Source of the DNA: Escherichia coli | Lineage (GTDB): Bacteria > Pseudomonadota > Gammaproteobacteria > Enterobacterales > Enterobacteriaceae | Length of the DNA: 64,000 nt | Assembly (NCBI GenBank): GCA_025336725.1 | Contig: GCA_025336725.1_3647.1 | Strand: one strand, 5' to 3' | Notes under the pieces: model-generated | The model's input: only the letters and a program-made list of their open reading frames with translations | What the model was told of the DNA's origin: nothing | The model's database searches: none | Position numbers and translations under genes: made by a program | Shown: one piece after another, positions 957-54,651 of the stretch | How positions within the stretch are numbered: the first letter of the stretch is position 1 | Layout: each line of letters starts with the position of its first letter

Positions 957-971
957 AAATCGCTCAGGTTA

Positions 972-990
972 TTATCACGTATTGTGATAA
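972..990. promoter_or_regulatory. perfect inverted repeat TTATCAC-N5-GTGATAA in intergenic gap
   Basis: Seen directly in the 62-nt gap between two fibre-cluster genes; 7-bp arms. Function unknown (operator-like site or RNA hairpin). Confidence 0.3.
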
Positions 991-1018
991 CGGCCCTCTG
1001 TAAGGTGGGATCTGCTCG

Positions 1019-1213
1019 TCAGCAATATATTTTGCCCAAGTCCCGGAGCATATTGAAAATATAGTTAAGTTCTTCACATGACGGCTTTTGACCAAGATCC
1101 CAACCTTTTCTCCACAAATCATCAATCGGGCGTAGCCTGTTCTGTCTGTGGGTGTTAGGCAGAACCTGATCCTCCTCTGCCCAAATCTCTAATGGAAAAC
1201 TAGGTTTTGACAT
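1019..1213 (-). CDS. hypothetical small protein
   Basis: 64 aa ORF; ATG preceded by AGGAG 5 nt upstream; start overlaps the stop of the upstream gene (translational coupling). Confidence 0.45.
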   Translation of the reverse strand: MSKPSFPLEIWAEEDQVLPNTHRQNRLRPIDDLWRKGWDLGQKPSCEELNYIFNMLRDLGKIYC

Positions 1214-3995: not shown

Positions 3996-5516
3996 TTAAA
4001 TAGTTTGTTGGAAAGTTATATTACTTTCGTCGAGGTCAAACACTTCGGTCATGTTTGCAACAACATCGTTTGTAGTGTAAGCTTCGTCAGAGGCTCCCAC
4101 AGGTTTAACTTGAATTACAAGTCTGTTAAATCTGCCTATTGACACAGCAGCCGATGCAGCGCCAACTAATTGGATATTATACAACGTGTCTGCAACATCC
4201 AAGCCGTTAACAACCTGCAAAAGAGCCTCTGTAATGGCATCTTTTTCGGTAGTGGAAAGTGCAGCACCCGAGTAAGTAATTCTCATATCCAAGCGGTAAG
4301 TGTTTGCCTTAGAATAATAAATCCTTTCAGTCTGACCGTCTGATGTGGTAATATCGTAGAAGATATTCCCATAAGTTCTGTTTGTGCAAGCTATGGTTTG
4401 ATACAGCGCTTGACAAATATCCTCTGTTGCACCACCAAACACTACCACTTGAAATTTGTAAGGTGGTATACCTTTCGCATCCGTTTTATCGGTGTTGTTA
4501 GAGAACACTCTTACTTTCTCAACACCTTTCACTTCGCTTACAGCGCTAAGGATTGCAGGGCGGGTAGCTTTAGATGTCAACTGTTTAGTGCTGGAGGCTC
4601 TTAGGCGGTACTCTGAGTCTTTCTCAACATCTCTGCCCTCATTGAATCTTTCTCGGTTGGTAAGCTTGATAAATCCGCTGGGGGTAGGTGACATTGTTGT
4701 TACAGTTTCTGCCTCTCTTGACAGCTCGCCTGCCTCATTAGCAATAACATCCAAAGTGATAGTTCTTTCCCCTACAATCGGGGATACTCTGAAATCTACT
4801 CTACTATTAAGTCCAACTTGATCAAGATTTGAATTGTACCCTATCCACAACGTTCCTGTCAACATATCGATCTGAATCAAATCGTCGTTCAACAGGGTTG
4901 TATTATCGACAATGAATTGCTTAATCTCTCCGTAAAAGCTTGGCAAATCAGAAGAGTCCAGAGACTTATCTGTTAAAACCAGACTTTTTGTTTTGATACT
5001 TCCATCTGTCTGGTTGGTAATTTGAAAGTTGTATTTCCCAATTCTTAGATCTGGAGCATTTATTCTGTGAGCAATAAGATTCCCTGCTACTTGCACATCA
5101 TTGCTAAGAACAAAGTTGCCACTATCCAGCGTATAAGTTTTGGAATCGTAAATCATATTGTACGGCACAGTTGTGTTGATCGTCAACTGGCAGGTACCTG
5201 ATGATTTAGAACGGCCTCTTCGGTAAATACCCTGTCTTCCAAGAAGTTCGTCTAGGTAAATACCTTCTGCCCCATACAGCGTCTGTGATGCGTATACAGA
5301 TGCTGCCATAAGAATAAGTTGATACTCTCGCTCGTTGAAGATAGTGGTCAGCTTATCCGCAACGGAGTTACTCTGTACGTTGAAGTTTTCGCCAAAAGCA
5401 CGGATCAGGCTTTGCTTAGTTTCAACGATTAGGTCATTTAGGGTTGGTATAACGAAACCAGCCTCTGTCAATCCATACTTAGCCACGTCACTCCTCCGGT
5501 ATGAAAATCTATACAA
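3996..5516 (-). CDS. baseplate wedge protein (J-like)
   Basis: 506 aa; gene order V-like ... J-like, I-like, fibre matches the P2/Mu baseplate module. Assignment by position and size only. Confidence 0.35.
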   Translation of the reverse strand: MYRFSYRRSDVAKYGLTEAGFVIPTLNDLIVETKQSLIRAFGENFNVQSNSVADKLTTIFNEREYQLILMAASVYASQTLYGAEGIYLDELLGRQGIYRRGRSKSSGTCQLTINTTVPYNMIYDSKTYTLDSGNFVLSNDVQVAGNLIAHRINAPDLRIGKYNFQITNQTDGSIKTKSLVLTDKSLDSSDLPSFYGEIKQFIVDNTTLLNDDLIQIDMLTGTLWIGYNSNLDQVGLNSRVDFRVSPIVGERTITLDVIANEAGELSREAETVTTMSPTPSGFIKLTNRERFNEGRDVEKDSEYRLRASSTKQLTSKATRPAILSAVSEVKGVEKVRVFSNNTDKTDAKGIPPYKFQVVVFGGATEDICQALYQTIACTNRTYGNIFYDITTSDGQTERIYYSKANTYRLDMRITYSGAALSTTEKDAITEALLQVVNGLDVADTLYNIQLVGAASAAVSIGRFNRLVIQVKPVGASDEAYTTNDVVANMTEVFDLDESNITFQQTI

Positions 5517-5552
5517 GGTATTTTACCAAATTTTGTAACAATAGTCAATCTG

Positions 5553-5582
5553 AGCATAAAAATAAACCCCGCCGAAGCGGGG
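5553..5582 (-). terminator. rho-independent terminator
   Basis: Minus-strand hairpin CCCCGC-CGAA-GCGGGG (5567-5582) followed by UUUAUUUUUAU on the transcript; lies between the large fibre gene and the J-like gene. Confidence 0.7.
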
Positions 5583-5591
5583 CTTTAAAGG

Positions 5592-6144
5592 TTAGTCGTG
5601 AGACTCGTTCCAAGGTCCCTGGAAGCTTGAGTTAGAACGGCTTACCACAACAGTAGGACAGGATATTGCGACCCCTGTTACAGAAGACGTTGACCATGGT
5701 GTGTAGATTTCAACAACAATATCTATGGTTTGTTCACCAAGACCTGTTATCCCTACCGCACACATGCCGTTGTTGTCGTTTCCGTATTTCTTACCTGCAA
5801 GGATTTGATGTCCGGCTATCCAAACGTTGAGCTGGGGTTTCGGCAAGAGTAGCCATTCAGTTTAAAGAAGAATGTTACGTTCTTACCCTGACCTGAAACG
5901 TTATCTACGTATCTCCACCTCCAACGGCAAACCCTTTGCTTGGGAGTTATATACTGGAGCACAATCCCCGTAAGTCCCTGTGTGTGCAACAATTGCACCG
6001 AACTGGTTAGCACGGATAACAGAAGCTTCTACACGACCACGGAAGGTATCTCCGGTTGCATCTATGGTGCCTCTAAAGCTACCATTATTGGCATAAATAT
6101 CCCCACGGAAGGTACCACTAGTGGCGTTAACTGCCCCCGTGAAG
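5592..6144 (-). CDS. C-terminal continuation of the large tail fibre gene, split over shifted frames
   Basis: Just past the stop of the 1199-aa ORF, a shifted frame reads ...SGNFTGAVNATSGTFRGDIYANNGSFRGTIDATGDTFRGRVEASVIRANQFGAIVAHTGTYGD... and continues into the track ORFs 5816-6013 and 5592-5846; no intergenic signals in this stretch. Confidence 0.45.
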
Positions 6145-9100
6145 TTACCAGAACTGGCGTTGAGCGTTGCCTTTCACCCACACATCCATAAATTGGGGCG
6201 TGCCCGTTCTTGTTAATATACCAACCGTATTTATGGTACTTCCGTTGCCATCGTAGTTGTTTGACGAAATCTCCTGTGCAATCTTGGCTGAAGAGATCGT
6301 GCCATTTTCTATGAAGGCATCTTTCAAGAACGCTTGGTTGTTCTTGATTGCGAAAGCAAGGGTTGCTGTTCCGTTTCCAGGGTTATATACCGCAAAATTG
6401 TTTGCACTAACCATAAAGTAGGATTGAACTTGGCCCCCAGACCCTTCCATCCCCAACTGGATACCTGCAACATATTTATTCCCTGCGGAGTCCACCTGTA
6501 TTTTTGTGCCCCACTGAGCGTTTACTTTACCCTCTAAGTCGGTTACAGCCTTAGATGTTGTAGCTACTGCAGCCCTGATCTCGGACACATCTCCAACATC
6601 ATCAATGATCTCCTGCTTAGCAACAGCAAGTTCTTGACGAATAGCTGACGCTGTTCCGTTAATCAGGTCAACAGTGGCCTGATTAGTTTCAGAAATATTT
6701 GCAGACAAATCTTTCTTAGCTTGGGTAAGCTTATTATCCAACCCCGTAATATTGTTGGTGTTGGTTGTAATCTGCCCTTTAGCAGAGGTTAATTGTTCAG
6801 ATAAGGCTGCAGTTTTCTGATTCAGCAGGTCCGTTGTGGCCTTGTTGGTGGTAGAGATCAATGTATTGAGATCAGATTTAGTGGTGTTGATCTTGCCATC
6901 TAGAGTGGTGTAGTTTTTAGATACCGTGGCGTTAGTCTGGCTAATCTTCTGGTCAAGAGTCTGAGAAGTTCTATTCAGCAAATCCACAGTGGCCTGATTG
7001 GTGCTCAGAATGCTTGCATCCAGCTCAGATCTCTGAGTATTCAACTTACCTTCCAGGCTCTTATCTCCAGCCAGATATCCTTTTTCAACATCACCGATCT
7101 GCTCGGTTAGCTCACCTTGTGCAGCAACCAGTTTTTCATCCAACGCATCTGTTTTCTTGTTAAGAAGATCAGTGGTGGATTTGTTGGTTGTCTCAATCAA
7201 CGACGACAGTTTGGCACTCTCATTATTCAAGTTGTTGGTCAACTCACCTTTCGTTGCCGTCAGCTTATTGTCCAGTGCCTCGGTTTTCCGATTAAGGAGA
7301 TCTGTAGTCGTCTTATTGGTTGATACAATCAGAGAGTTCAGCTCAGAGCTTTCCTGTGCTAAAGCATCTTCCAACTCCCCCCTTGTTGAAACAATCTTCT
7401 CGTCCAAAGCTTCAGTTTTCTGATTTAGCAGATCGGTTGTAGCTTTGTTAGTGGTCTGGATTAGAGAAGTCAGCTTGCCACTTTCTTTAGAAAGATCATC
7501 TGCAAACTTGTTCTGAGTGGCTACCAGTTTCTGGTCTAGAGTGGTAAGCGTTCCATTAACGTCCTGGAAGTTGTCGTGGGTTTCTTGGATGAATATTCCA
7601 ACCCTATCCCCCAACTGAGCATACAGCTTGTCTACTCTAGAGAACTCACCTTCCATGTGGTCAAAAGCCTCGTCAACTCTACCATCCATGTACCTGTTAA
7701 GTTCTGTGACACGATTTTCAACCTCTTCAATAGAGGAATCCAAAGTGCTCATCAACTCTTTATAAGTTTCTGTCTTTTTGAATTCAGCATCTATCTGAGG
7801 CATCAAATCCTCGATAGAGGTGTAGCAGCGTGCAGCGCATTCTACAAACTGAGAGCTACCAAAAGCGTTTGTGGTTCGAATATACCAATAATAAACCTTA
7901 TCGTTCTGCAGGCCTTCAGATGTCCAAGTTGAACCAACACCCATACGGGTGGCGTTTGAAGTAACGGTTGCATCGCTGGTGTCGGGCAACCTTGTCATAC
8001 CAGATGTCCAAAAGTCATACTGGGTGCTTACACTTGCTAAATCCCTGCTGTGTGGAATCAAGGTGATAGCAAAGTATCCCTGCTTAACCTCTACAGAAAC
8101 AGGAGCTTCAGGTGCCTGAATGTTAAACTCGCAGTACGCTTCTGGAGATACACCACCTTTATAAGATGTTGCAACCACGGTTGCTGTGTATGATCCTTTG
8201 GTCAAGCCTTCTACTCGGACAAACTGCTCAACTGTCTGTGCTGTCCAAACAATCTCTCCGTTCTTTCTTACCTGCACAATATTTTGAGCGTAAGTTCCAA
8301 CGTTGTCCCAAGCCAAAACACCGTGAGTTACTTCCCCGGCTTGGAGAACGGAATACCTGAAGTTTTGCGGTTGAGCTACACCAGATGGAGATATCGGAAT
8401 ATCTACATTACCAGAGTCCGGAAGTTGTCCTGTGGCATCATTCCACTCTTTAGCATCTTGACGGAGTTTTACCTTGACACCACCCTTTTTAGTAAACTCC
8501 CATTCAAGAACCCTCATTTCTTGGCCCACTATACCAATACTTGGGAGGTTCATTGTAACGTAACGACCAGGTTTAAATTTAAAACCTCGCATATTGCAGG
8601 TGACTTCAATAATCCTGCCAGCTCTAGCGCGTCTTAAGAAGATTGCAGAAACACGCTGGGCTTGATAAGGGCTGGTAACAAAGCGATAGTCTATATCGAT
8701 TATCTTTCTTTCTCCATCCTTCTCTATCCACTCTGGGACAAACACTGATGGAAAATCTGTTTCAGAATATCCTTTGGTCGGGCTAGTGAATCTGCCAGTT
8801 ATTGTGTTGGATCTTTTGTCAAACGAGGCTTCCGGATAGATCTTAACCTCACCACAGACACAGTCCTCACTCAGTGTCATTGTTGCAGGGCCATAGTATG
8901 CACCAACCAGCAAACCATACTTACCAGCAACATAACTAAGATCTGCACCACAGGCTTTCAGCATTTCTGCCATAATACTTGCTGGGGCCTCATCCATGTC
9001 GAACTCACCGTTAATTGTGTAACGTCGCTCACTGGTTCCGTCAGCGTTTTTTACCGCCTCGTCGCATATGTTGGCAGCCTCCTTGAAGGACTCCCAGTTG

Positions 9101-9744
9101 ATGGTCTCGTCAGGACATTTAAGGTACGTTCTTAAATAGTCTAGGATCACCAAGGCAGCGTTATTGGTATACACCTCTTTACTGATACGAGGATCATAGC
9201 ATTTTTTACCAACCTTGACGAGTGTGACGTTTGGCAACCCAAAAGGAAACTTGTTAGGGTCAAACTTGAAGCTGGCACGTAGCCAACTGATCCCTCTACC
9301 TATCATGTCTGGTGACCAAGATGGGCAGTGTGTCCCCATGAAAGGATCAGCTGTTTTTCTGTCGTTATGTAGCTCCCACGATACCAAATCTCCATACGAG
9401 GAAATAGGATTACCATCGATAAGTATATCTTCTATACCTTCCAGAGGGTGATTGGCAAGAACAATAGCACAATGAAGAGTTTTGTCTCTATCCTGCTCCA
9501 AAAACGCAAGCAATCCGGATGTGCGTGTCTTACCATACACTACAGAGCAAGGTGCAGCAGAAGATCTGAGAAGCTTTTGTCTATCTTGCTGACTTCTGTA
9601 AGATTTGTTGCCCTCAAAAATCTTATCCAGAGTTCTGGTGGTAACAGTGTTCAGGCTGTCAGCCAGAGCTGCCTTGGATGCGTTCCAGTCATAACTTGAA
9701 GATCTTGCAGAAGCAACGATGTTATCAATCATTGCAATTGGCAT
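6145..9744 (-). CDS. large tail fibre / host-specificity protein (lambda gpJ-like C-terminal domain, coiled-coil repeats)
   Basis: 1199 aa; central ~40-aa repeats (xLxSLIxTTNKxTTDLLNxKTxALDxKL) predicted coiled coil; fibronectin-III-like segment; C-terminal YFMVSANNFAVYNPGNG...AFIENGTISSAKI as in gpJ-type fibres. The ORF is truncated by a frameshift at about 6145. Confidence 0.6.
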   Translation of the reverse strand: MPIAMIDNIVASARSSSYDWNASKAALADSLNTVTTRTLDKIFEGNKSYRSQQDRQKLLRSSAAPCSVVYGKTRTSGLLAFLEQDRDKTLHCAIVLANHPLEGIEDILIDGNPISSYGDLVSWELHNDRKTADPFMGTHCPSWSPDMIGRGISWLRASFKFDPNKFPFGLPNVTLVKVGKKCYDPRISKEVYTNNAALVILDYLRTYLKCPDETINWESFKEAANICDEAVKNADGTSERRYTINGEFDMDEAPASIMAEMLKACGADLSYVAGKYGLLVGAYYGPATMTLSEDCVCGEVKIYPEASFDKRSNTITGRFTSPTKGYSETDFPSVFVPEWIEKDGERKIIDIDYRFVTSPYQAQRVSAIFLRRARAGRIIEVTCNMRGFKFKPGRYVTMNLPSIGIVGQEMRVLEWEFTKKGGVKVKLRQDAKEWNDATGQLPDSGNVDIPISPSGVAQPQNFRYSVLQAGEVTHGVLAWDNVGTYAQNIVQVRKNGEIVWTAQTVEQFVRVEGLTKGSYTATVVATSYKGGVSPEAYCEFNIQAPEAPVSVEVKQGYFAITLIPHSRDLASVSTQYDFWTSGMTRLPDTSDATVTSNATRMGVGSTWTSEGLQNDKVYYWYIRTTNAFGSSQFVECAARCYTSIEDLMPQIDAEFKKTETYKELMSTLDSSIEEVENRVTELNRYMDGRVDEAFDHMEGEFSRVDKLYAQLGDRVGIFIQETHDNFQDVNGTLTTLDQKLVATQNKFADDLSKESGKLTSLIQTTNKATTDLLNQKTEALDEKIVSTRGELEDALAQESSELNSLIVSTNKTTTDLLNRKTEALDNKLTATKGELTNNLNNESAKLSSLIETTNKSTTDLLNKKTDALDEKLVAAQGELTEQIGDVEKGYLAGDKSLEGKLNTQRSELDASILSTNQATVDLLNRTSQTLDQKISQTNATVSKNYTTLDGKINTTKSDLNTLISTTNKATTDLLNQKTAALSEQLTSAKGQITTNTNNITGLDNKLTQAKKDLSANISETNQATVDLINGTASAIRQELAVAKQEIIDDVGDVSEIRAAVATTSKAVTDLEGKVNAQWGTKIQVDSAGNKYVAGIQLGMEGSGGQVQSYFMVSANNFAVYNPGNGTATLAFAIKNNQAFLKDAFIENGTISSAKIAQEISSNNYDGNGSTINTVGILTRTGTPQFMDVWVKGNAQRQFW

Positions 9745-18533: not shown

Positions 18534-19118
18534 TTAGTTAACATCAATAGCACGACCAGACTGGTTGGCAATAGCCTCATCATTGGAGGTAGCAATAACA
18601 CCAGAGTATTCGCGCTCATCTGGAGCAAGCGTCCAGGTATTGCGGTTAATGGTTTGTTCTGCCTCAGTCATCAGCAGATCTTTATCCTGAGTCAACAGAG
18701 AGCCTACAGGGATCGGGTTTTCCATCTCAGGACCAGCATACTGGTTCCACCATGTGGCATCTCCGGTTCTAGGCAATCTGAAGTTGATCAGGTAGTACAG
18801 TTTATTAGCCCACTTAATCCAACCCTCATCATCACAGAGAGAGGTTGTCCCAGAATCAGGCTGTGGGTAGGTGAACTGATCAAGACCTACGAAAGCCAGC
18901 CTTACAATCTCGTTCTCTTTGGTAACAACCTCAAAGAACGCTTGGTATGTTCTAGATCTTCGATCCATGGTAGACTGGAAGTTTATGATGTTTAGCACAT
19001 CCGGCTCTTGTCTTGCCACTTCCATAATCTTGTTATCAAGAACAGTCTTCATGACCTTCTTGCTGAGAAAGTCCATATAAGGGAGCAAACAGCTCGTCAG
19101 CAGCCAGCTCCCTTCCAC
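18534..19118 (-). CDS. hypothetical baseplate-associated protein
   Basis: 194 aa ORF between the spike gene and the fibre cluster; true start may be an internal Met. Confidence 0.35.
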   Translation of the reverse strand: MEGSWLLTSCLLPYMDFLSKKVMKTVLDNKIMEVARQEPDVLNIINFQSTMDRRSRTYQAFFEVVTKENEIVRLAFVGLDQFTYPQPDSGTTSLCDDEGWIKWANKLYYLINFRLPRTGDATWWNQYAGPEMENPIPVGSLLTQDKDLLMTEAEQTINRNTWTLAPDEREYSGVIATSNDEAIANQSGRAIDVN

Positions 19119-21332: not shown

Positions 21333-21878
21333 TTATTTTCCGTTAACTTTGTTGTAGTTCCCCTGCTCAGATGGGACTATGGTGGAAGGTCTTCCATATT
21401 CCTGATAATACCAATCTGCAGCCGATTGGGTAACACCGTTTTCATCTGTCCACATCATGGATTTGTATGGCTGCCACTCTTCTGCAGCATTTGTGGACGC
21501 GGTGTCTGCAAATGCCCCTGTGTCTCTCTTGTTACCTACGTTACTACCATTCTTGCAATCGTTGACAGCCCCTTTTTGCTGGGTCTTGCCGACCTTCTTG
21601 GGGTTGCTGTATACAGTTGCATTAACAACCTTGTTCAAGTAGAATGTGCGGAATTCTGTAAGTTCCACATCAAACACCATTGCAGCACCCTCACCAACAG
21701 ACTTGTTGGCAGAAAGACTGGTTATAATGTAGTTTTCAAGGAGTCTCTCTTCAGTAACTAAAGAAACCAACTGCCGCTTATTAATGATCTCGTCAAAGTT
21801 TCCAGTGCAGCGCCGCAAGTCGCATAGACGCTGCAGGGTTTTTAGAGTCAGTATTCCTGTCAATGTAGTTTTGCTCAT
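21333..21878 (-). CDS. hypothetical structural protein
   Basis: 181 aa ORF; its first 86 nt overlap the upstream ORF in another frame, so either the start is downstream or the two form one frameshifted gene. Confidence 0.35.
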   Translation of the reverse strand: MSKTTLTGILTLKTLQRLCDLRRCTGNFDEIINKRQLVSLVTEERLLENYIITSLSANKSVGEGAAMVFDVELTEFRTFYLNKVVNATVYSNPKKVGKTQQKGAVNDCKNGSNVGNKRDTGAFADTASTNAAEEWQPYKSMMWTDENGVTQSAADWYYQEYGRPSTIVPSEQGNYNKVNGK

Positions 21879-22218: not shown

Positions 22219-22282
22219 AACCTCTCCAGGACACTCCTATACCATCTAGATATTGTATCATAAACAGCTACGTTTTTACAAC

Positions 22283-22312
22283 ACCGATAAAATAAAGGGG
22301 GCCGGAGCCCCC
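22283..22312 (-). terminator. rho-independent terminator
   Basis: Minus-strand hairpin GGGGGC-UCCG-GCCCCC followed by UUUAUUUUAUCGG; separates the tape-measure region from the baseplate genes. Confidence 0.7.
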
Positions 22313-22637
22313 TGCACAGTTTATTACCAAAGGTCGGTAGACATGAAGTTGATATCTTTATTGTTCTCCCACTCAAGTTTTGCATCAAATATTTTGTTAA
22401 ACTCGCCCTCATCTATTGAAATCGTGATTTTCCCATCACTGATCTCTAAAGGTAGCATTTCCATAGTTCTTAATTGAGAAGCAAAACCGAGGCCACCCCG
22501 GCAACGGAAAATCCCGCCCCATTAAGGTGTCCAAAGGATTAACAAACCCGTTACCTCAAATGAAAGTATCTTTGCGAATCATATCGCTGATAGCATCCAG
22601 CTGCTGATTTCTTTCACTTAGTGGGTTGTAACGGTCA

Positions 22638-23099
22638 TTAAATAATTCCGGCGCTTAGTATTATACCGATAATGCCCAGCTTACCGAGCAGACCAACTTT
22701 GCCACCAGGTGTCTTGAGGCCACCCCCACCTTTTCCTGCCGGAGCTCCACCACCAGATCCTTCTGTAGTAGCGGCACCAGCTGCTGCTGCTGCTCCAGCT
22801 GCACCCCTTAGAGAGTTAAGGAATTTAAAGGTTTTTACAAGCATGGATGCCATGACAAAACCTTTTGTTAGGGCGTTGACTACCAGCATGATGGCAGCAG
22901 CAAACCCTGCCCATTTAGCATAGCTAAAGGTGTCATGAAGCTCTTCAGAATATTCCTTCGTCTTAGCTGTTATGAATCCCCATTTAATCCCCCATTCAAG
23001 GAAAAACATGCGGATCTTGACTATAGTGTTGTTTAGTTCACCAACTACCCAGTTAAGGCCTCTCACAAACCCGCTAACAAAATCACCAGAGGCATCCAC
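22638..23099 (-). CDS. probable C-terminal fragment of the tape measure protein (hydrophobic, Gly-rich)
   Basis: 153 aa; hydrophobic segments plus GAAGAAAAAGAATTEGSGGGAPAGKGGGG...GIIGIILSAGII, as at tape-measure C-termini; lies downstream of the 415-aa helical ORF in another frame. Confidence 0.35.
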   Translation of the reverse strand: MDASGDFVSGFVRGLNWVVGELNNTIVKIRMFFLEWGIKWGFITAKTKEYSEELHDTFSYAKWAGFAAAIMLVVNALTKGFVMASMLVKTFKFLNSLRGAAGAAAAAGAATTEGSGGGAPAGKGGGGLKTPGGKVGLLGKLGIIGIILSAGII

Positions 23100-23161
23100 A
23101 CAAATTACGGGGAGTCTCGCCAGTGCGAATCAGTGTATAATGAACTCTGTTAATTCATCGC

Positions 23162-23371
23162 TTAACGGGTGAACAGCTTCTGACAGGATAATTCGATGAA
23201 GGTTTTCAGTCTGTTTTCTGCCAATGCGTTAGACTTCTGCATTCTTTCATAACCGGCTGCAGATGCCTCGTTCATATACTTAGCCACATACTTCATGATC
23301 TTGGCTGTCTTAACCTCACCTTTCTTCATCATGTCCATGAACTGATCCATGGACAGTTCAGAAAAGACCAA
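23162..23371 (-). CDS. short ORF between tape-measure fragments (possible frameshifted segment)
   Basis: 69 aa ORF (TTG start; first ATG is internal at MDQFMDMM) between the 415-aa and 153-aa tape-measure-like ORFs. Confidence 0.25.
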   Translation of the reverse strand: MVFSELSMDQFMDMMKKGEVKTAKIMKYVAKYMNEASAAGYERMQKSNALAENRLKTFIELSCQKLFTR

Positions 23372-23414
23372 AAGCCTCTTTGGTGGCTTTGATAAAGGTT
23401 ATGCGGGCAATGCT

Positions 23415-24662
23415 TCAGCAAGTTGTTGCTTCAGTTCTTCGGACATTACCTGTCCTTTCCCGAGCAATTTGCTGGATTGCCATGATACCACGCTGGTATT
23501 TTACCTCATCGGCACCATAAGCAGCAGCATACTGTGAGTATGCAGAAAACAGCTCATGCACTTCCTGATTTGTCATCTGGTTTTTGGCGTTTACCGACAT
23601 CTGGGCGTAACCTTGAAGACCAGATTTGAGATCAAAACCAAGACGCATAGCCTCTTGCTGGACAAACGCAACCTCACTGTTGGCTTTGTTTGGATCTCCA
23701 GTAACAGCAGTAAGAGCAGCACTTGCCCCCTCCATCATGTGACCAGATCTGTTCACAGCAGTAAATCCAGAGAAAGCCGTATACGCAGCTGTTGCATTAA
23801 TAACAGACCTACGTAAGTCTCTCATGGCATCACCAAGTGTAAGCGTTTGGCTGGTGGCGCTTTTAAATCCAGACTGCAGAGCTGACAGGTGGGCGTTAAA
23901 GGTTGACTTTTTCATCTCCCCGCGAGCAAACCTGGACTCTAACTCTGAGTATCCAGGCAAGCTTCCACGGAATCCGGCTCCATACTTGGCAGAAAGTCTT
24001 ATCGCAGAGTTGTAGAGGTGGGTTCTCCTTGCCTCACGATCCGACATAAGCCTATTATCCATGCCAGCTTTACTGTCCCTTCTTAGCTGTCTATGATAAC
24101 GATTCATAGCAGCTGTCTGAGCTTTCACAAGGTTAGGGTCGGAAGCCACACCACCCATATTAGGGTTACCAGGGATATACTTGAAAGATTTGGCATTAGC
24201 CAAAACTCTTGCCTTAGGTGCCTTATAACCGCCGTAAGACACTGGTGTAGATTTGGCAGCCTTTTTGGCCTCTTTAGCTTGCTGCTGGTAGAACTTACGC
24301 ATCCTAGCCATTTCTGGATTTTTAGCGGTAAGATTGCCTACAGCTTGTTTACGTCTCGCGTTCTCCCTACGTTCTATTGCGGCCCTTACTGCAGCCTCTT
24401 TCTTGGCTTGTGCTACGCTCTCCCTGTGCAGTTTAGCATTTGCCTGAGATTGCTGTCTGGCAACCCGCTGCATTGTTTGCTGGGTTTTAACAGCCACTGC
24501 CTGCCATCTACTCATCGGGTTGGCTGAGTTAAAATCCTCGCCAAGTTTCCTGAACTCCCTCCCAATACTGCGAATTTTCTCTACAGCTTTTTTGTAGGAG
24601 GAGTTCTCTATCTCAAAGCCAATCTTGTTGACTGTTGTGGCAACTATTTTGTTTGTAGCCAT
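23415..24662 (-). CDS. tail tape measure protein (N-terminal and central part)
   Basis: 415 aa, Ala/Lys/Arg/Gln-rich helical sequence; canonical position after the chaperone pair and before the baseplate genes; RBS GAGGAAAG before ATG. Confidence 0.45.
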   Translation of the reverse strand: MATNKIVATTVNKIGFEIENSSYKKAVEKIRSIGREFRKLGEDFNSANPMSRWQAVAVKTQQTMQRVARQQSQANAKLHRESVAQAKKEAAVRAAIERRENARRKQAVGNLTAKNPEMARMRKFYQQQAKEAKKAAKSTPVSYGGYKAPKARVLANAKSFKYIPGNPNMGGVASDPNLVKAQTAAMNRYHRQLRRDSKAGMDNRLMSDREARRTHLYNSAIRLSAKYGAGFRGSLPGYSELESRFARGEMKKSTFNAHLSALQSGFKSATSQTLTLGDAMRDLRRSVINATAAYTAFSGFTAVNRSGHMMEGASAALTAVTGDPNKANSEVAFVQQEAMRLGFDLKSGLQGYAQMSVNAKNQMTNQEVHELFSAYSQYAAAYGADEVKYQRGIMAIQQIARERTGNVRRTEATTC

Positions 24663-24716: not shown

Positions 24717-24965
24717 TTATCCTCTCCTGCGCTTAGCTTTCGCAGCAGCTGCGGCAGCCTTCTGCTCCCGCTCCATTTCCCTGTTTTGGACGGTATCTAG
24801 GAATTCTTCGATATCAAGATACTCACAGAGCTTCAGGAAATACGCCATATCTGCAAGATTTAGCGATTCAAAATTTTCCCCTTTGAAATTCTTGAGCACC
24901 CTGCACCAAAGAAAGTCGAACCAGTTAAGTGAACTGTTCTTGGCTGCCCACTCACTGGCCCTCAC
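24717..24965 (-). CDS. possible frameshift-extension ORF of the tail assembly chaperone
   Basis: 82 aa ORF (GTG start) in the +1 frame, overlapping the end of the 157-aa ORF by 13 nt; this frame stays open upstream across the overlap. Confidence 0.3.
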   Translation of the reverse strand: MRASEWAAKNSSLNWFDFLWCRVLKNFKGENFESLNLADMAYFLKLCEYLDIEEFLDTVQNREMEREQKAAAAAAKAKRRRG

Positions 24966-24976
24966 AACAACCTTGC

Positions 24977-25450
24977 TTATTCCTGCTCTTCCGGAGTCTG
25001 ATCCAGATTGTTCACCTGCTGGATCATACCCATCTGCTGTAACATCTCCAGAAGGCTTCCTAAACCGTCTTGTGTGAAAAAACAGCCGTAGTTAACCTCC
25101 AGAACCTTACCTGCCAGCTTAATCATCTCCAGCAGATGCCCTGCAAACACAACATCAGGGTTAAGCTTATCCACACCATCCACGGTAATATCTTCGAACA
25201 AGATTTTAAATAACTCTTCAATAGAGTTATCATCAAGTTCCTGGAACAGGTAAGCTAGGGCTGTAGGAAGGACCTCTGCCATATTCTGACCGCCTGAGAG
25301 AATAGATCCACCGATAGCACCTAGCGGGACAGCCACAATCTTACCGATTTTAGGCATGTTTTTCATTGCTTTCATCGGCCCCCAGTGAGTGATCACAAAG
25401 TTGTGCCCTGCTAAATCAATCTCTGTTGTAGGTCTAAAGTTTATAGCCAT
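24977..25450 (-). CDS. tail assembly chaperone
   Basis: 157 aa, acidic C-terminus; located between tube and tape measure, the conserved chaperone position. Confidence 0.4.
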   Translation of the reverse strand: MAINFRPTTEIDLAGHNFVITHWGPMKAMKNMPKIGKIVAVPLGAIGGSILSGGQNMAEVLPTALAYLFQELDDNSIEELFKILFEDITVDGVDKLNPDVVFAGHLLEMIKLAGKVLEVNYGCFFTQDGLGSLLEMLQQMGMIQQVNNLDQTPEEQE

Positions 25451-25523: not shown

Positions 25524-26762
25524 TTAACCTTTCAACCAATCCAAGTATGCAGGATCATTTTTACCTTCATCGCTGTGCCATTCGAAGCGAGAGTTGCCGC
25601 TGTTTTCAAGGATATAGCAGCCTGCATTTTTAGCATTCCACTCTTGTGTTTTCTCAGGATCGTATAAGGACTCGTCCAACCCTAAATGCTTCAGTGTCTC
25701 TTGGATGTTTGACTTCCACCAAGCCTGTCTTGGCATTCTGCCACCACGGTAGCTCCAGAAGCTGGTAGATACCTGATCGTCCTCTGCCAAAATCCAGCCA
25801 TCCTCCTCCTTATAGGACACACCTGTGAAGTAATCCCTGTCAAGGAAGGATTGAACATGATCCATCTTAAACTCTTTTTGGATATGCTTAAACAGCTTAC
25901 TACGCCCACCAGGAACGTTACAGCTTGTTGCATACCTTACCATGTCCCACATAACGAAAGGGGTTACCTTTTGATCTCTGTTTTTCAATACCTTAAAACT
26001 CATACAAGCTACCAGCTCACCGTCAGATGTAAACAGACCCTTCTTCACTTCCTTGGCGGGAGCATACCCTTGAATGTGGTTTTTCTCCATAAAGTCACGG
26101 TAAGTTTTATTGTCCACATCCCTAACTGTGCACTTTCTGGCATAGACGGTCTTCTCGTCTTTGACTCCTAAAGCATTCTTAAGATATCTCTCAATGATAG
26201 GTCTTTTCCGAGCATCCTGCCAATCACAATCCCATATAGACAACATGCGAATACCTTGTTTTTCACAGGCCTTCCTTTTCAGGATGTGGTACCATTTCCC
26301 CTTACTATCCACGGAGTGCCAATAGGCACCATTATATTCCACAGCAAGCTTAAGCTCCGGGATATAAATGTCCAGCTCCATCTTTTTCTTGGAAGGATCT
26401 TTAAAGTTGTCCAGAATCCGCACGTTCTCTTCAATATCTCCGCTATAGACACTTTTAATGAACGTCAGGATCTCTTTTTCACCATTAGACTGATTGCGAC
26501 AGCAACGAGGGCATCCTTGTCCTTTCCCGTAATGGAATTCAGGACGCTGCATGAAGATATTCCCACACTCTTTGTGGCGCATCATCATAGGCGTTGAGGC
26601 GTTCACATAAGAGTCTTCAAAATACTCATAATCCCCACCATGAACTTCTACACATCTCTCAACTATTTCTTGGAAGCTAGGAACTTTTTTCACAGAAACA
26701 GACCTTGCTGCGCAAGTCTTGCACCCTTGCCCAGATAAATGCTTGCTGGGTTTCTGATACAT
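25524..26762 (-). CDS. homing-endonuclease-like protein (Zn-ribbon N-domain plus restriction-endonuclease-like core)
   Basis: 412 aa; N-terminal VHGGDYEYF...C...GQGCPRC zinc-ribbon; then GEKEILTFIKS...LDIYIPELKLAVEYNGAYWHS resembling Vsr/DUF559-type nuclease folds; inserted between tail genes. Confidence 0.45.
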   Translation of the reverse strand: MYQKPSKHLSGQGCKTCAARSVSVKKVPSFQEIVERCVEVHGGDYEYFEDSYVNASTPMMMRHKECGNIFMQRPEFHYGKGQGCPRCCRNQSNGEKEILTFIKSVYSGDIEENVRILDNFKDPSKKKMELDIYIPELKLAVEYNGAYWHSVDSKGKWYHILKRKACEKQGIRMLSIWDCDWQDARKRPIIERYLKNALGVKDEKTVYARKCTVRDVDNKTYRDFMEKNHIQGYAPAKEVKKGLFTSDGELVACMSFKVLKNRDQKVTPFVMWDMVRYATSCNVPGGRSKLFKHIQKEFKMDHVQSFLDRDYFTGVSYKEEDGWILAEDDQVSTSFWSYRGGRMPRQAWWKSNIQETLKHLGLDESLYDPEKTQEWNAKNAGCYILENSGNSRFEWHSDEGKNDPAYLDWLKG

Positions 26763-26849
26763 TATTCTTCCGCACGTTTTGCAATGAATCTCAACCTTAT
26801 CCCAGAGGTCTTGCTTACTACATGGCTATGACCATACTTTTCAGCATTT

Positions 26850-27149
26850 TCAAGGATATCTTTTTAATACCTTTTTGATCCACTCCTCGGTAGTGCACCT
26901 GTTACCACGCTCATGTGGGAATTTCTTACCCTTTCTTGATTTTGCAGATCTCTCAGCTCCACAAACAGGGCATCCTCTTTTTAGATTTATATGGTTATCA
27001 GGTGTCTGGTTGAAGTGGTTACCGCAGGTATTGCAGACTATTTCTACCTTATCTTTGCATGTTTTGTATTCTATAAGAGAATAATCGTACTTATCTCCGT
27101 GAACCCTACGAGCTTTTTCGATAAACCTTTCTGCACTCAATTTAGCCAT
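26850..27149 (-). CDS. Zn-ribbon protein paralogous to the N-domain of the adjacent endonuclease-like gene
   Basis: 99 aa; ARRVHGDKYDYSLIEY...CNTCGNHF...GCPVC parallels the N-terminus of the 25524-26762 product. Confidence 0.45.
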   Translation of the reverse strand: MAKLSAERFIEKARRVHGDKYDYSLIEYKTCKDKVEIVCNTCGNHFNQTPDNHINLKRGCPVCGAERSAKSRKGKKFPHERGNRCTTEEWIKKVLKRYP

Positions 27150-27199
27150 AACTGTCTCCTCCTTTATTGTAGGATACTAAAAACAAACAAATATGTCAA

Positions 27200-31372: not shown

Positions 31373-32188
31373 TTATGCCAGTGCAGCCTCAAAATCTTTC
31401 ATCATATTTTGGAAAGTTTTTGCCTTACTTAAGGTAACACCGTGCTCTTTAGCGAAGGTTTGGAGTGCATCTTTTGAACCACTTTTGTCATCTTCGTTGT
31501 TAAGAGCTGCGGCCTGTTTAAGGATTTCATCCTTATTCTCAACAGCTGCAGATGCGAAAGAGGCTACAGTCACATCTTGTGGATCTGCTACAGGACCTTC
31601 ACCGTCACCCTCAAGAGGTGGTTCCGGAACTTCAGGTTCAGGCTCTGGGGCCACTGTAGAGGTCAGCCCAAGATTTACAACCTGAGAGCGTTTCTTAGGC
31701 CATTCGATGGTGAAAGTTTGGGTATCTTCTTCATAAACAATGTTGCATTGCTCATCGTTTATGGTCACTTTCTTAGGCATACCTTCAGGGTCCCACAGAT
31801 GGCCCTCTGCAACGGAAACTTGGAAAGCAGCATCTACTTCTTTAAATACTGACGGGGTGAGTGTGATATTGACATCCCCACTTTGCAGTGTTAAAGTGCT
31901 TTCATCAAGGTTTTCTGTGAAGAACAGAAGAATAACACCCATACGGATAGTTGAAATACCAGTATCAATTGGCAGGCCTGTGTGTTTTGCAATCTTCTGG
32001 AAGAAGTCTACAATCGTTCTACATGGATAGTGAACACTGCCAATAACGAATTCTGTTGGGGGCAGCAGAGCTGATAAACCAACATTGATTTCTGGATTGT
32101 ATTGTGCTAAAAATTGATAAAAACTTAATTGATTGTTGAAAACTCTTAATAGAGGATCATACTCAACTGGATATACGGCTCTCTTCAC
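31373..32188 (-). CDS. hypothetical head-associated protein
   Basis: 271 aa; immediately downstream of the capsid gene; contains PEPEPEVPEPP linker. Confidence 0.35.
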   Translation of the reverse strand: MKRAVYPVEYDPLLRVFNNQLSFYQFLAQYNPEINVGLSALLPPTEFVIGSVHYPCRTIVDFFQKIAKHTGLPIDTGISTIRMGVILLFFTENLDESTLTLQSGDVNITLTPSVFKEVDAAFQVSVAEGHLWDPEGMPKKVTINDEQCNIVYEEDTQTFTIEWPKKRSQVVNLGLTSTVAPEPEPEVPEPPLEGDGEGPVADPQDVTVASFASAAVENKDEILKQAAALNNEDDKSGSKDALQTFAKEHGVTLSKAKTFQNMMKDFEAALA

Positions 32189-34209: not shown

Positions 34210-34229
34210 CTCAGCAGGTTCCTGTCTAC

Positions 34230-34715
34230 TTAACAGATCAGGTTCCCTTCTTTATCGAAGAGATCAGCGGTTACTTGTTCAAAAATCTGTTGTGTTTTTA
34301 ACGAACTGCTCTGATCTACCACGTTAAGCTGCTTGCCTTCTTTTGCAGCTTTATGAATGGTCACGTTATCACAACGCTCTTCCAGCCATGCAATGCAAGA
34401 CTCTGCGTCAGCTTGCGCCCATTCCCAATCAGGATGCTCTTTAGCCCAAGCTTCCTCTTCAATCTCAAAACCAAGCATGTGTGCGAGTGCTTTGGCATCG
34501 TCATACCACATATCGAAGAAACGACGCAGGTATTCTTCAAAACTCAGCTCCACAGTAACTTGGCGAAGTGCCTTAACAATATCGTCTGTTAACTGCTCAG
34601 GCTGAAGATCACTCTTCATCAAAAGAGATACAGGTCTGTTGTTAGCGCTATAGCCTTGCGCCTTATGGCACAGGGCAATCCCCTTCTCTTTAATAGTGAT
34701 TGTTTTTTCAGACAT
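34230..34715 (-). CDS. hypothetical head morphogenesis protein
   Basis: 161 aa ORF in the head module. Confidence 0.35.
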   Translation of the reverse strand: MSEKTITIKEKGIALCHKAQGYSANNRPVSLLMKSDLQPEQLTDDIVKALRQVTVELSFEEYLRRFFDMWYDDAKALAHMLGFEIEEEAWAKEHPDWEWAQADAESCIAWLEERCDNVTIHKAAKEGKQLNVVDQSSSLKTQQIFEQVTADLFDKEGNLIC

Positions 34716-36775: not shown

Positions 36776-36810
36776 ACAGTATAACAAAATAGCCCTCGTG
36801 TCAGAGGGCT
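36776..36810 (-). terminator. terminator/attenuator hairpin between terminase and portal genes
   Basis: Hairpin AGCCCUC-N6-GAGGGCU followed by AUUUUGUUAUACUGUUUUG on the minus transcript. Confidence 0.45.
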
Positions 36811-36860
36811 AGTATCTCCGATTACTCTATTCTACCACATCTAATTAAGATTGGCAACAC

Positions 36861-38003: not shown

Positions 38004-38030
38004 GGTGTATTCAAGTCCTTGATGGTTAGT

Positions 38031-38408
38031 TTATCTTGGACATACTCCATGTGGCAGTATTTTACAACGGCCTCCTTTTTTGCTCCTGTCCCACTTGCCA
38101 GTGCTCGGATCAAACCGTGGAAAAATAAACTTATGATCCTTCTCTCTGAACTTTGGTTTAATGTTTTCAGGCAGATCACTGTAAATAGCTACTGCTTTAG
38201 GCCATAGCCCACCCTCACCTTCCAACTGTGGAGTTGTTCTTCGGAACATAACCACAGAGCTGTGTGGGTCATCAATAATTTTAAGTGGCATTAGCTGCAA
38301 GAGGAACGACTTGCCAGAACCGGCTGCACCTCCGATCACCAAAATATCTGCATCGTTCTCAAGGATCATCTTCTGCTTTTCAGAACACGGTCCGTAAATC
38401 TTAGACAT
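38031..38408 (-). CDS. terminase large subunit, N-terminal ATPase portion (Walker A)
   Basis: 125 aa; Walker A VIGGAAGSGKSF; ends at an in-frame TAA 27 nt before the Walker-B ORF. Confidence 0.6.
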   Translation of the reverse strand: MSKIYGPCSEKQKMILENDADILVIGGAAGSGKSFLLQLMPLKIIDDPHSSVVMFRRTTPQLEGEGGLWPKAVAIYSDLPENIKPKFREKDHKFIFPRFDPSTGKWDRSKKGGRCKILPHGVCPR

Positions 38409-40607: not shown

Positions 40608-40708
40608 CNNNNNNNNNNNNNNNNNNNNNNNNNNNNNNNNNNNNNNNNNNNNNNNNNNNNNNNNNNNNNNNNNNNNNNNNNNNNNNNNNNNNNNNNNNNN
40701 NNNNNNNN
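40608..40708. other. assembly gap (run of N)
   Basis: Unresolved bases seen directly in the sequence. Confidence 0.99.
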
Positions 40709-44879: not shown

Positions 44880-44924
44880 AGAAGTGGAAAGTTCTTTTTA
44901 ATCATTCCAGCTTAAGGGAGCTGT

Positions 44925-45533: not shown

Positions 45534-45541
45534 AGGGATGT

Positions 45542-50894: not shown

Positions 50895-51357
50895 GTGGAA
50901 GACGGTCGTTTAATGAAGTCTGAACGCAGGCTTATTGTGCAGCTGATCCCAGAAACAGCTTGGTATAATAACCTACGAAACGCTGTGAAGAAGAGCGAGT
51001 GGGATAAGATCCGTAAGAAGTGCTACAGAGAGGCCAACTACACTTGTGAGGTGTGTGGCGGTAAAGGTAGCAAACACCCAGAATTAGTGTCATGAACTTT
51101 ACACTTTCGAAGGGGGTGATCGGCTTGTAGGACTGATAGCGTTGTGCCCAGACTGTCACACATCGGTGCATCCAGGGTTAGCAAATATCCGTGGAAAGTA
51201 TGCTCAGGCAGTTAATCAGTTGGCTAAGGTGAATAAGATCACCAAGGGTATGGCAGAGGCCTATTACCGAGACTGCTTTGCAGAGTGGCGTGAGCTTAGT
51301 AAAGTTCCAGAATGGAAGACTGACTTTTCGTGGATAGAGGGTTACCTTGATGGCTAA
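50895..51357 (+). pseudogene. HNH-type nuclease split by a frameshift near 51085-51095
   Basis: ORF 50895-51095 ends ...CEVCGGKGSKHPELVS; the next frame is open from 51088 and reads CHELYTFEGGDRLVGLIALCPDCHTSVHPG...; together they give a CxxC...H...CxxCH...H HNH signature. Confidence 0.45.
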
Positions 51358-53472: not shown

Positions 53473-54096
53473 GAGAGCGTCTATTATCCATAGACCAGTC
53501 GTTGACACACACAGCTTGTGTTGTATGGGACGATGGAAAGCCTGTTCATAAGGTTGTATTACGAACTCAAAGCTCATCTGCAAAAGAGAAGAAACCAGGG
53601 ACGGTTTCTTTTGCAACAGCTGCTGAGCGTATTGACTGGATCTGCAAACAGGTCAGATATTATATCCACACGCACGGAGTTGACACCGTGGTTATGGAAG
53701 GGCTTTCCTTTGGATCACGCGGGGATGCCACACGTGAACTGGCGGGTTGTTTTACGGTCTCGAAGTATGCTTTGGGATGCTTTAGCAGATTGTGAAAATG
53801 ACGGCCTGTTTAAGGTCCACACAGTAACACCGACAACCGCCAAAAAGTTTGCTCGTAGTCATCTTCCTGAAGAACTTGCTTTTGAGGAGAAGAAAAAGCT
53901 TGACAAAAAGACAGGTAAAGAGCATACTGTGAAGAAACCTGTTACGATGGATAAAAAGTTAATGGTTAAGGCCTGTGAAGTATCTGAACCAGGGTTTCTG
54001 GATGGGATCAATTTAAGATACAAGGTAAGGCCGATCTGCAGATGCCTACGGATAGGCAGGGCGCATCTGGAGGGATTATCGCAAAGCGTAAAATAA
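53469..54096 (+). CDS. RuvC-like resolvase-family protein, reading frame shifted near 53770-53800
   Basis: Frame A (53469-53795) has LLSIDQSLTHTACVVWDDG...VVMEGLSFGS (RuvC-like Asp/Glu motifs); frame A then hits stops while frame B continues ...LWDALADCENDGLF... to 54096. Confidence 0.35.
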
Positions 54097-54651
54097 GAAA
54101 GAAAGCTGTCAAAGCTCCCGTTCATAGCGGGTGGCTAAAAGATTCTAAGGACATAGCCAACTTTCGGAAAGAATTGTCAGAAGAGCAGGATGGCCTTGAT
54201 CCGATCTTGTGCGAGCCACTTCGTAAGCCTTGTTTAGATCATGATCATCTGACTGGTCGTTGCAGAGGTGTTTTGTCCCAATGCACTAATACCTTTGAAA
54301 GATATGTGCTTAAATACTGGATGAAATACTGTAGCGAGTATCAGGTGCAGTTTATCAGAGGCGTTGCGCCGGATGGCTGACTATCTGGAGAAAGACTACA
54401 GCGACTTCCCGCTCCACAAAAACTACAGAGACGATATGACAAAGTTCTTGAGGAGATGCTCTAAAGCCACAATTATTGCACGAGCAGAATCGGATCTCGA
54501 TCTTGTCATTAATCCAGAGTACACTAAGCATGAGGCTATTGAAGCCTACATGCAGGAGTTCATAAAGAAAACTGAGGAGAGAGACTTCTATGGGGATGAA
54601 AAAGGTATTCAATCCTTGCGATTCAGTTCTGATCAGGATGAAATACCGTAA
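54042..54651 (+). CDS. endonuclease VII-like resolvase (T4 gp49-like), reading frame shifted near 54365
   Basis: Frame A has QDGLDPILCEPL...CLDHDHLTGRCRGVLSQCTN (T4 gp49: QNGKCLICQREL...LDHDHELNG...RGLLCNLCN); after the stop at 54378-54380 the next frame continues ADYLEKDYSDF... (T4: VDYLEWLENLL). Confidence 0.45.

What the first reader, a model, noticed from the sequence alone, without database searches (positions are those of the whole stretch)
5592..9744. Large tail fibre gene ends prematurely; its C-terminus continues across three reading frames
The 1199-aa ORF stops at 6145, but the next 550 nt are fully coding-like in shifted frames (SGNFTGAVNATSGTFRGD..., then ...YVDNVSGQGKNVTFFFKLNGYSC..., then ...PKPQLNVWIAGHQILAGKKYGNDNNGMCAVGITGLGEQTIDIVVEIYTPW...), with the terminator only at 5553-5582. 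Either the gene carries at least two indel errors or the fibre tip is made by programmed frameshifting. The tip is where receptor specificity usually resides.
Basis: seen in the sequence. Interest (0 to 1): 0.5.

Follow-up and report, generated by a model that had tools for sequence, protein, structure and literature searches.

The report
Tail fibre gene broken by sequence errors
The apparently truncated, three-frame tail fibre gene of this rV5-like E. coli phage is an ordinary single-frame gene; small insertions and deletions unique to this draft assembly break it, as they break eight other genes in the window, so it is most likely a sequencing or assembly artefact and not a recoding mechanism.

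Summary
The 1199-aa ORF (9744..6145, minus strand) stops early, and the next 550 nt stay coding-like in shifted frames up to the only terminator (5585-5555).

The cause is mundane. The gene is the lambda-J-type central tail fibre of a Vequintavirus (rV5 gp037 homologue). All six relatives fetched encode one continuous ORF (1381 or 1279 aa) ending at the same TAA and terminator. Nearly all of about 100 listed relatives hold 734 nt where the window holds 741.

The window carries eight private indels within 6241-5841: six that change the frame (one of 2 nt, five of 1 nt) and a -3/+3 pair, net +7 nt. Reverting them gives a stop-free 1381-aa protein, 98% identical to phage BP9.

The same defect hits eight other genes in the window, including the tape measure (five frame segments). 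Two relatives used as controls have none. The window has 35 private 1-2-nt indels in 50 kb, against 3-4 in relatives, plus a 100-N gap. The exact ORF is deposited from an "Escherichia coli" record, on a 122-kb contig.

No usable slippery site exists, and 3-6 shifts would be needed. Verdict: sequence or assembly errors, not programmed frameshifting. Low interest.

The parts
5592..9744 (-). Full extent of the J-type central tail fibre gene (rV5 gp037 homologue). It is 4153 nt here and 4146 nt (1381 aa plus stop) in BP9, WM, YN3 and ENA contig L009.
   Evidence: Pfam Ig_J, Ig_J_second and Phage_Tail_Tip; PHROG_31 'central tail fiber J', E=1.6e-158
6145..9744 (-). The 1199-aa ORF as it reads in the window. 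It is identical to NCBI MCT7477417.1, 'DUF1983 domain-containing protein [Escherichia coli]'.
6240..6241 (-). Private +2 insertion (AA on the coding strand: GGG becomes GGAAG), at codon 1168, inside the Phage_Tail_Tip domain.
6195..6198 (-). Private +1 insertion in a C run (CCC becomes CCCC). It restores the frame for 11 codons.
6164..6165 (-). Private +1 insertion with an adjacent substitution (AACA-TC becomes AACGCTC). It causes the TAA at 6147-6145.
5978..6000 (-). In-frame pair: a 3-nt deletion (GAA) at ~6000 and a 3-nt insertion at 5980-5978.
5940..5941 (-). Private +1 insertion (A becomes AA).
5841..5852 (-). Two private +1 insertions (5852 and 5841) in a small garbled patch (GCC-AGCTCCC becomes GCCGAAACCCC).
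5555..5585 (-). Intrinsic terminator of the fibre gene, identical in relatives.
958..1046 (-). Same kind of lesion in the rV5 gp033 tail fibre homologue: four private 1-nt indels, with the first stop at aa 65 of 346.
19085..19100 (-). Two private 2-nt deletions that break the gp044 homologue (stop at aa 50 of 238).
21791..21817 (-). Private -1 and +2 indels that break the gp048 homologue (stop at aa 142 of 294).
22270..23467 (-). About 10 private indels that split the tape measure gene (gp049 homologue, 778 aa) into five frame segments. The ORFs are 415, 69, 153 and 69 aa.
34225..34235 (-). Garbled patch with a +2 insertion and a stop codon, breaking the gp062 homologue (stop at aa 162 of 325).
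51084..51118 (+). Indels that break the gp087 (HNH) homologue.
53743..54345 (+). Indels that break the gp092 and gp093 homologues.
40609..40708 (.). Run of 100 N that replaces ~382 bp present in relatives. It marks a scaffold gap, or a masked stretch, in a draft assembly.

Best explanation
The region is the 3' end of one ordinary single-frame gene for the lambda-J-type central tail fibre of an rV5-like (Vequintavirus) phage. In this sequence record the last ~650 nt carry eight small indels, six of them frame-changing, that are errors of the draft consensus. Possible causes are a low-coverage or low-quality patch, a long-read consensus, or mixed-strain reads on a phage contig assembled within an E. 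coli WGS project. The real phage would make a 1381-aa protein read in one frame to the TAA at 5594-5592, followed by the terminator. Shown here: the indels are private to this assembly, reverting them restores an intact homologue, and the same lesions are spread over many genes. Inferred: they arose during sequencing or assembly and not in the DNA molecule.
For: (1) All relatives fetched have one continuous ORF ending at the same stop and terminator: BP9, WM, YN3 and ENA contig L009 at 1381 aa, rV5 and Bas59 at 1279 aa. 13 of the 14 other listed members of the 90%-identity protein cluster are 1381 aa. (2) In all 40 best relatives, and in nearly all of 60 relatives sampled down the ranking, the window's 741 nt (5560-6300) correspond to exactly 734 nt. 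(3) All indels in the 4153-nt gene fall within 6241-5841. Removing 10 inserted nt and restoring 3 deleted nt gives a 1381-aa protein with no internal stop, 98% identical to BP9. (4) Eight other genes are also split across frames: gp033, gp044, gp048, tape measure gp049 (five segments), gp062, gp087, gp092 and gp093. That is 9 of 71 genes in the window, against 0 of 54 in BP9 and 0 of 52 in YN3 under the same test. (5) Private 1-2-nt indels in 50 kb number 35 in the window, against 3, 4 and 4 in rV5, BP9 and YN3. (6) Indel sites lie in 5-15-nt garbled patches. Private substitutions are about 4-fold enriched within 10 nt of them (9.6% vs 2.7%, p=7e-13), and some create stop codons. (7) Draft status: there is a 100-N gap, and the exact ORF is deposited as MCT7477417.1 from an 'Escherichia coli' record on a 122,420-bp contig. 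(8) Away from the patches, differences from relatives are mostly synonymous: 25 synonymous against 5 nonsynonymous codon differences vs rV5 in the last 993 nt. The lineage is therefore under normal purifying selection.
Against: No reads or quality values are available, so the origin of the errors is inferred and not observed. Only about half of the indels extend or shorten a homopolymer. They show no association with GATC or CCWGG. The pattern therefore does not match one textbook platform signature. No near-identical genome (>99%) with an intact gene was found to serve as a direct control; the closest is ~95-96% identical. Part of the enrichment of substitutions near gaps may be an alignment effect.
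Confidence: 0.9

Rival explanations
1. The indels are real mutations. The contig would represent a defective, non-viable or decaying rV5-like genome (for example a dead-end carrier-state population) in which the fibre tip, the tape measure and other genes are pseudogenes.
For: The lesions are in the deposited sequence. Several patches also contain nonsense codons. The contig comes from a bacterial WGS record and not from a plaque-purified phage.
Against: Nine genes, including the tape measure and tail and baseplate components that a tailed phage needs, would have to be inactivated. Yet the rest of the 64 kb shows mostly synonymous divergence and intact ORFs. The damage is confined to tiny patches and is not diffuse decay. 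Vequintaviruses are virulent phages (own knowledge), so there is no obvious way for a dead copy to persist and be sequenced as a 122-kb contig. No relative shares any lesion.
Confidence: 0.07
2. The fibre tip is made by programmed ribosomal frameshifting through the three frames.
For: Overlapping open frames tile the whole 550 nt, and no terminator follows the premature stop.
Against: Every relative examined encodes the same residues in one frame. At least 3 shifts (+1, +1, then -1 or +2) are needed to reach the terminal stop. Six frame changes are needed to reproduce the homologous protein. The only two X_XXY_YYZ heptamers in the region (5934 and 5866) are in the wrong frame or lead into a closed frame. 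The first frame change lies inside the conserved Phage_Tail_Tip domain. Eight unrelated genes show the same pattern. A full-text search found no report of recoding in rV5 fibre genes.
Confidence: 0.005
3. The segments 5592-5846 and 5816-6013 encode independent small proteins downstream of a genuinely shorter fibre gene.
For: ORFs of 84 aa (TTG start) and 65 aa (GTG start) can be called mechanically.
Against: Their sequences are simply in-frame parts of the 1381-aa protein in relatives. No relative annotates separate genes here. The ORFs overlap and use weak start codons.
Confidence: 0.005

Closest known systems
Central tail fibre / tip attachment protein J of rV5-like phages (rV5 gp037, YP_002003539.1; BP9 WXX17766.1), related to lambda J
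   Same: The DNA is 92-96% identical. The synteny is the same: distal tail protein, tail protein and DUF6950 protein upstream, and the baseplate wedge gene downstream. It has the same Pfam domains (Ig_J, Ig_J_second, Phage_Tail_Tip), the same stop codon and the same terminator.
   Different: Only the window copy is interrupted by eight small indels in its last 650 nt. After correction it belongs to the 1381-aa length class (BP9/WM). Its last ~250 nt resemble the rV5/Bas59 allele more closely.
Programmed -1 frameshift of tail assembly chaperone genes (lambda G/GT type; Xu, Hendrix and Duda 2004, cited from own knowledge)
   Same: Two overlapping reading frames in a phage tail gene.
   Different: The real case is a single shift at a slippery heptamer, and it is conserved across relatives. 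The window has such a candidate at 25082 (T_TTT_TTC) in the gp051/gp050 homologues. The fibre region has no usable heptamer, needs 3-6 shifts, and is single-frame in every relative.
+1 frameshifts that give C-terminally extended structural proteins in Listeria phage PSA (Zimmer et al. 2003, cited from own knowledge)
   Same: The idea that a structural protein's C-terminus is reached by recoding.
   Different: This rests on resemblance only. None of the defining features (a conserved shift site, two products, conservation in relatives) is met here.
Frameshifted genes caused by consensus errors in draft assemblies
   Same: The indels are private. Many genes are affected. The ancestral frame is intact after correction. 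An N-gap is present. The contig comes from a bacterial WGS project.
   Different: The errors cluster in short garbled patches. Homopolymer and non-homopolymer changes are mixed, so the platform or cause cannot be named from the sequence.

Membership tests
Lambda-J-type central tail fibre (Phage_Tail_Tip / PHROG_31) | Phage_Tail_Tip (PF09327) domain above the gathering score | tested here: met
   134.4 bits against a cut-off of 22, at aa 1059-1199 of the corrected protein
Lambda-J-type central tail fibre (Phage_Tail_Tip / PHROG_31) | J-type Ig-like domains and a match to the central tail fiber J PHROG | tested here: met
   Ig_J_second scores 106 bits against a cut-off of 27. Ig_J scores 24.5 bits, below its cut-off of 29. 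PHROG_31 matches at E=1.6e-158.
Lambda-J-type central tail fibre (Phage_Tail_Tip / PHROG_31) | Position at the end of the tail-tip gene block, collinear with rV5 gp040-gp036 | tested here: met
   tblastn of rV5 proteins onto the window gives a collinear order
Programmed ribosomal frameshifting | Slippery sequence in the incoming frame, inside the overlap of the two frames | tested here: not met
   Only GGGTTTG (5934) and TTTAAAC (5866) occur. Both are in a frame that is not in use, or they lead into a closed frame.
Programmed ribosomal frameshifting | Two-frame arrangement conserved in related genomes | tested here: not met
   All six relatives fetched have a single ORF. About 100 records were listed, and in nearly all of them the length is a constant 734 nt.
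Programmed ribosomal frameshifting | One defined recoding event that yields a defined product | tested here: not met
   At least 3 shifts are needed by the ORF map, and 6 to recover the homologous protein.
Programmed ribosomal frameshifting | Peptides that span the frame junctions | not testable with these tools
   This needs virion proteomics.
Sequencing/assembly indel artefact | Indels private to this record and absent from all relatives | tested here: met
Sequencing/assembly indel artefact | The same kind of lesion in many unrelated genes, including essential ones, with an excess over control genomes | tested here: met
   9 of 71 genes are multi-frame, against 0 of 54 and 0 of 52 in controls. 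There are 35 private 1-2-nt indels against 3-4 in relatives. The tape measure gene is split.
Sequencing/assembly indel artefact | The ancestral frame is intact once the indels are reverted | tested here: met
   For the fibre gene: 1381 aa, no internal stop, 98% identical to BP9. For the eight other genes, the corrected translations are 96-99% identical to rV5. Four are stop-free and four keep 1-3 stops, which lie inside the garbled patches.
Sequencing/assembly indel artefact | Read-level evidence (low depth, or discordant reads at the sites) | not testable with these tools
   No reads or quality values are available.
Genuine pseudogene / decaying phage genome | Relaxed selection spread along the gene, and lesions shared by independent isolates | tested here: not met
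   Codon differences vs rV5 in the last 993 nt are 25 synonymous against 5 nonsynonymous. The nonsynonymous ones lie in the last 650 nt, the stretch that holds the indels, and two of them adjoin an indel. No other record shares any lesion.

The most novel reading that the evidence does not exclude
The indels and the 5-15-nt garbled patches are real. The contig would then capture a non-viable Vequintavirus genome persisting in an E. coli culture. Alternatively, it would be the product of a localised, error-prone repair or template-switch process that scrambles short patches in structural genes.
Probability: 0.04. Interest if true: 0.4.

Novelty: not a real feature. Interest (0 to 1): 0.05.

Why it matters
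It matters mainly as a data-quality flag. The deposited 1199-aa protein (MCT7477417.1) is a truncated, partly out-of-frame version of a 1381-aa central tail fibre. At least eight other proteins from this contig are similarly corrupted. They should not be used for receptor-binding-domain comparisons, host-range inference or protein-family building. Had the frameshifting reading been true, it would have been an unprecedented multi-step recoding in a receptor-binding protein. The comparative evidence rules that out.

Tried and rejected
(1) Programmed frameshifting was rejected. No usable slippery heptamer was found, relatives are single-frame, and multiple shifts would be needed.

(2) Independent small ORFs were rejected. 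They are in-frame pieces of the homologous protein.

(3) A platform or methylation signature was looked for. Proximity of the indels to GATC, CCWGG, GANTC and four control tetramers was not above random expectation. Only about half of the indels are homopolymer-length changes. No platform can be named.

(4) A search for a near-identical genome with an intact gene, to serve as a direct control, failed. Exact-pattern scans of viral contigs and metagenome contigs found nothing. There was no match in complete E. coli genomes. The ENA contig L009 is only 95.8% identical.

(5) The look-up of encoding contigs for the exact 1199-aa protein returned nothing, so the source record could not be inspected.

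(6) A low-gap-penalty blastn indel list was too noisy in diverged regions. It was replaced by private-indel counts on 4-way alignments.

(7) A tandem-repeat scan of the gene found nothing at the DNA level.

(8) A literature search for rV5, tail fiber and frameshift found nothing relevant.

(9) A diversity-generating retroelement was considered and dismissed. Such elements make adenine-directed substitutions, not indels, and the lesions are not confined to one target gene.
Full report
WHAT IS THERE

The window is part of an rV5-like (Vequintavirus) phage genome. The 4.4 kb around the finding match 117 phage records at 80-95% identity, and the gene order follows rV5 gp032-gp105.

The 1199-aa ORF at 9744..6145 (minus strand) is the homologue of rV5 gp037, annotated as 'central tail fiber J' or 'tip attachment protein J'. 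Pfam finds Ig_J_second and Phage_Tail_Tip above their cut-offs, plus a sub-threshold Ig_J match (PF09327, 134 bits). PHROGs gives phrog_31, 'central tail fiber J', at E=1.6e-158.

CHECK OF THE OBSERVATION

Relative to the ATG, the open segments are as follows:
- frame 0: 9744-6145
- frame +1: 6173-5901
- frame +2: 6028-5816
- frame +1: 5861-5592

The only terminator-like site in 5300-6400 is the hairpin and T tract at 5585-5555 on the minus strand.

WHAT RELATIVES SHOW

In BP9, VB-EcoM-WM, YN3 and an ENA metagenome contig, the gene is one ORF of 1381 aa. In rV5 and Bas59 it is one ORF of 1279 aa. In all of them it ends at the same TAA, 7 nt before the same terminator.

13 of the 14 other listed members of the 90%-identity protein cluster are 1381 aa.

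The window's 741 nt at 5560-6300 correspond to exactly 734 nt in all 40 best-matching records. The same holds for nearly all of 60 records sampled down the ranking. The exceptions are one of 737 nt, one of 735 nt, two of 733 nt, one match joined from two pieces, and two partial matches.

The alignment pins the difference to eight window-private events within 400 nt:
- +2 at 6241-6240
- +1 at ~6198
- +1 at 6164
- -3 at ~6000
- +3 at 5980-5978
- +1 at 5941
- +1 at 5852
- +1 at 5841

The net change is +7 nt. The other 3.5 kb of the gene contain no indel against BP9 or WM.

The first event falls at codon 1168, inside the Phage_Tail_Tip domain. The tail of the called 1199-aa ORF is therefore already partly out of frame.

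Reverting the events gives a 1381-aa protein with no internal stop. It is 98% identical to BP9, and its C-terminal 330 residues are nearly identical to rV5.

IS THE LESION SPECIFIC TO THIS GENE?

It is not. tblastn of 73 annotated rV5 proteins against the window shows nine genes split across reading frames. Besides gp037, these are:
- gp033, a tail fibre
- gp044
- gp048
- gp049, the tape measure, in five frame segments, with ORFs of 415, 69, 153 and 69 aa
- gp062
- gp087
- gp092
- gp093

The identical test on BP9 and YN3 gives 0 of 54 and 0 of 52.

On 4-way alignments of the first 50 kb, the window has 35 private 1-2-nt indels. rV5, BP9 and YN3 have 3, 4 and 4.

The indels sit in short garbled patches. 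Private substitutions are about 4-fold enriched within 10 nt of them (9.6% vs 2.7%, Fisher p=7e-13). Part of this enrichment may be an alignment effect. Some patches create stop codons.

The window also holds a run of 100 N at 40609-40708, which replaces ~382 bp present in relatives.

The exact 1199-aa sequence is deposited as MCT7477417.1, 'DUF1983 domain-containing protein [Escherichia coli]', on a 122,420-bp contig. The window therefore most likely comes from a phage contig in a draft bacterial WGS assembly.

MECHANISM AND RIVALS

Sequence or assembly error is the best explanation (confidence about 0.9). A consensus of poor local quality introduced small indels and neighbouring miscalls. 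The real gene is a single frame. What is shown: the indels are private, they are reversible to an intact homologue, they are spread over many genes, there is a tenfold excess over controls, and the record has marks of a draft. What is inferred: the lesions arose in silico and not in the DNA.

Genuine mutation, meaning a defective or decaying genome, cannot be excluded without reads (about 0.07). It would require the tape measure, several tail and baseplate genes and the fibre tip to be inactivated together. Yet elsewhere the genome shows intact ORFs and mostly synonymous divergence: 25 synonymous against 5 nonsynonymous codon differences vs rV5 over the last 993 nt.

Programmed frameshifting is effectively excluded. 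Relatives are single-frame. Three to six shifts would be needed. The only two X_XXY_YYZ heptamers (5934 and 5866) are in unusable frames. The same pattern occurs in eight unrelated genes.

For contrast, the window contains a plausible genuine -1 site. It is T_TTT_TTC at 25082, in the overlap of the tail-chaperone homologues gp051 and gp050.

Independent small proteins are also excluded. The downstream ORFs are in-frame pieces of the homologous protein.

COMPARISON WITH WHAT IS KNOWN, AND NOVELTY

The gene is a regular member of the J-type central tail fibre family of Vequintaviruses. The 'three-frame C-terminus' is not a biological feature.

Nothing new is implied beyond a data-quality warning. 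The deposited protein, and at least eight others from this contig, are corrupted.

VERDICT

The 'indel error' interpretation is supported and the 'programmed frameshift' interpretation is rejected. Interest is 0.05. Novelty: not a real feature.

The decisive test is read-level inspection or resequencing of the listed coordinates.

Noticed in passing
window 40609-40708: A run of exactly 100 N replaces about 382 bp present in rV5, BP9 and YN3, next to the tRNA cluster and the ORF74 homologue. It is a scaffold gap or a masked stretch.
   Followed up: partly
window 24720-25450 (-), heptamer at 25082-25076: The homologues of rV5 gp051 (tail assembly chaperone) and gp050 overlap. A canonical T_TTT_TTC heptamer lies in the gp051 frame inside the overlap, leading by -1 into the gp050 frame. 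This is a candidate for the conserved G/GT-type programmed frameshift.
   Followed up: partly
window 5592-9744 (-): The fibre gene looks mosaic. Its body belongs to the 1381-aa length class (BP9/WM, 102 aa longer than rV5 in the repetitive coiled-coil part). Its last ~250 nt are much closer to the rV5/Bas59 allele: 10 differing codons in the last 650 nt, against 40 for BP9.
   Followed up: partly
window 44886-45542 (+), ORF 44925-45533: A 657-bp insertion, absent from rV5, BP9 and YN3, lies between the RNA ligase (gp078) and gp079 homologues. It carries a 202-aa ORF with no Pfam match. It may be a mobile or homing-type insertion.
   Followed up: partly
window 25545-27194 (-), ORFs 25524-26762 and 26850-27149: About 1.6 kb of extra DNA relative to rV5 lies between the tail chaperone and gp052 homologues. 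It holds a 412-aa ORF with no Pfam match and a 99-aa ORF with weak DUF723 / treble-clef zinc-finger matches.
   Followed up: partly
window 57308-58879 (+): A 523-aa ORF fuses ~330 extra N-terminal residues (about 0.95 kb absent from rV5, 57339-58297) to the gp099 homologue. It has no Pfam match.
   Followed up: partly
window ~36800-38400 (-); L005 35528-38373: The window lacks the HNH endonuclease (rV5 gp066) that interrupts the large terminase gene of rV5, which is annotated as joined from 3 pieces. BP9 and YN3 also have an uninterrupted terminase gene.
   Followed up: no
L005 (rV5 NC_011041) ~30653; window 31376-32188 (-): rV5 gp058 and gp059 are separate ORFs only in rV5, which has a private 1-nt insertion there. 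In BP9 and YN3 they form one longer ORF, and in the window both read in the same frame. The rV5 reference itself may therefore carry a frameshift at this point.
   Followed up: partly
protein P0012: One other member of the fibre protein cluster is short (1139 aa). It was seen on 3 contigs, the longest 140,869 bp, the same length as the unannotated 'Campylobacter phage' A142-type records. This may be another truncated copy in low-quality records.
   Followed up: no
window 48011-49267 (+): The DNA ligase homologue is only 55% identical to rV5 gp084, while neighbouring genes are 85-99% identical. This points to a local gene replacement.
   Followed up: no
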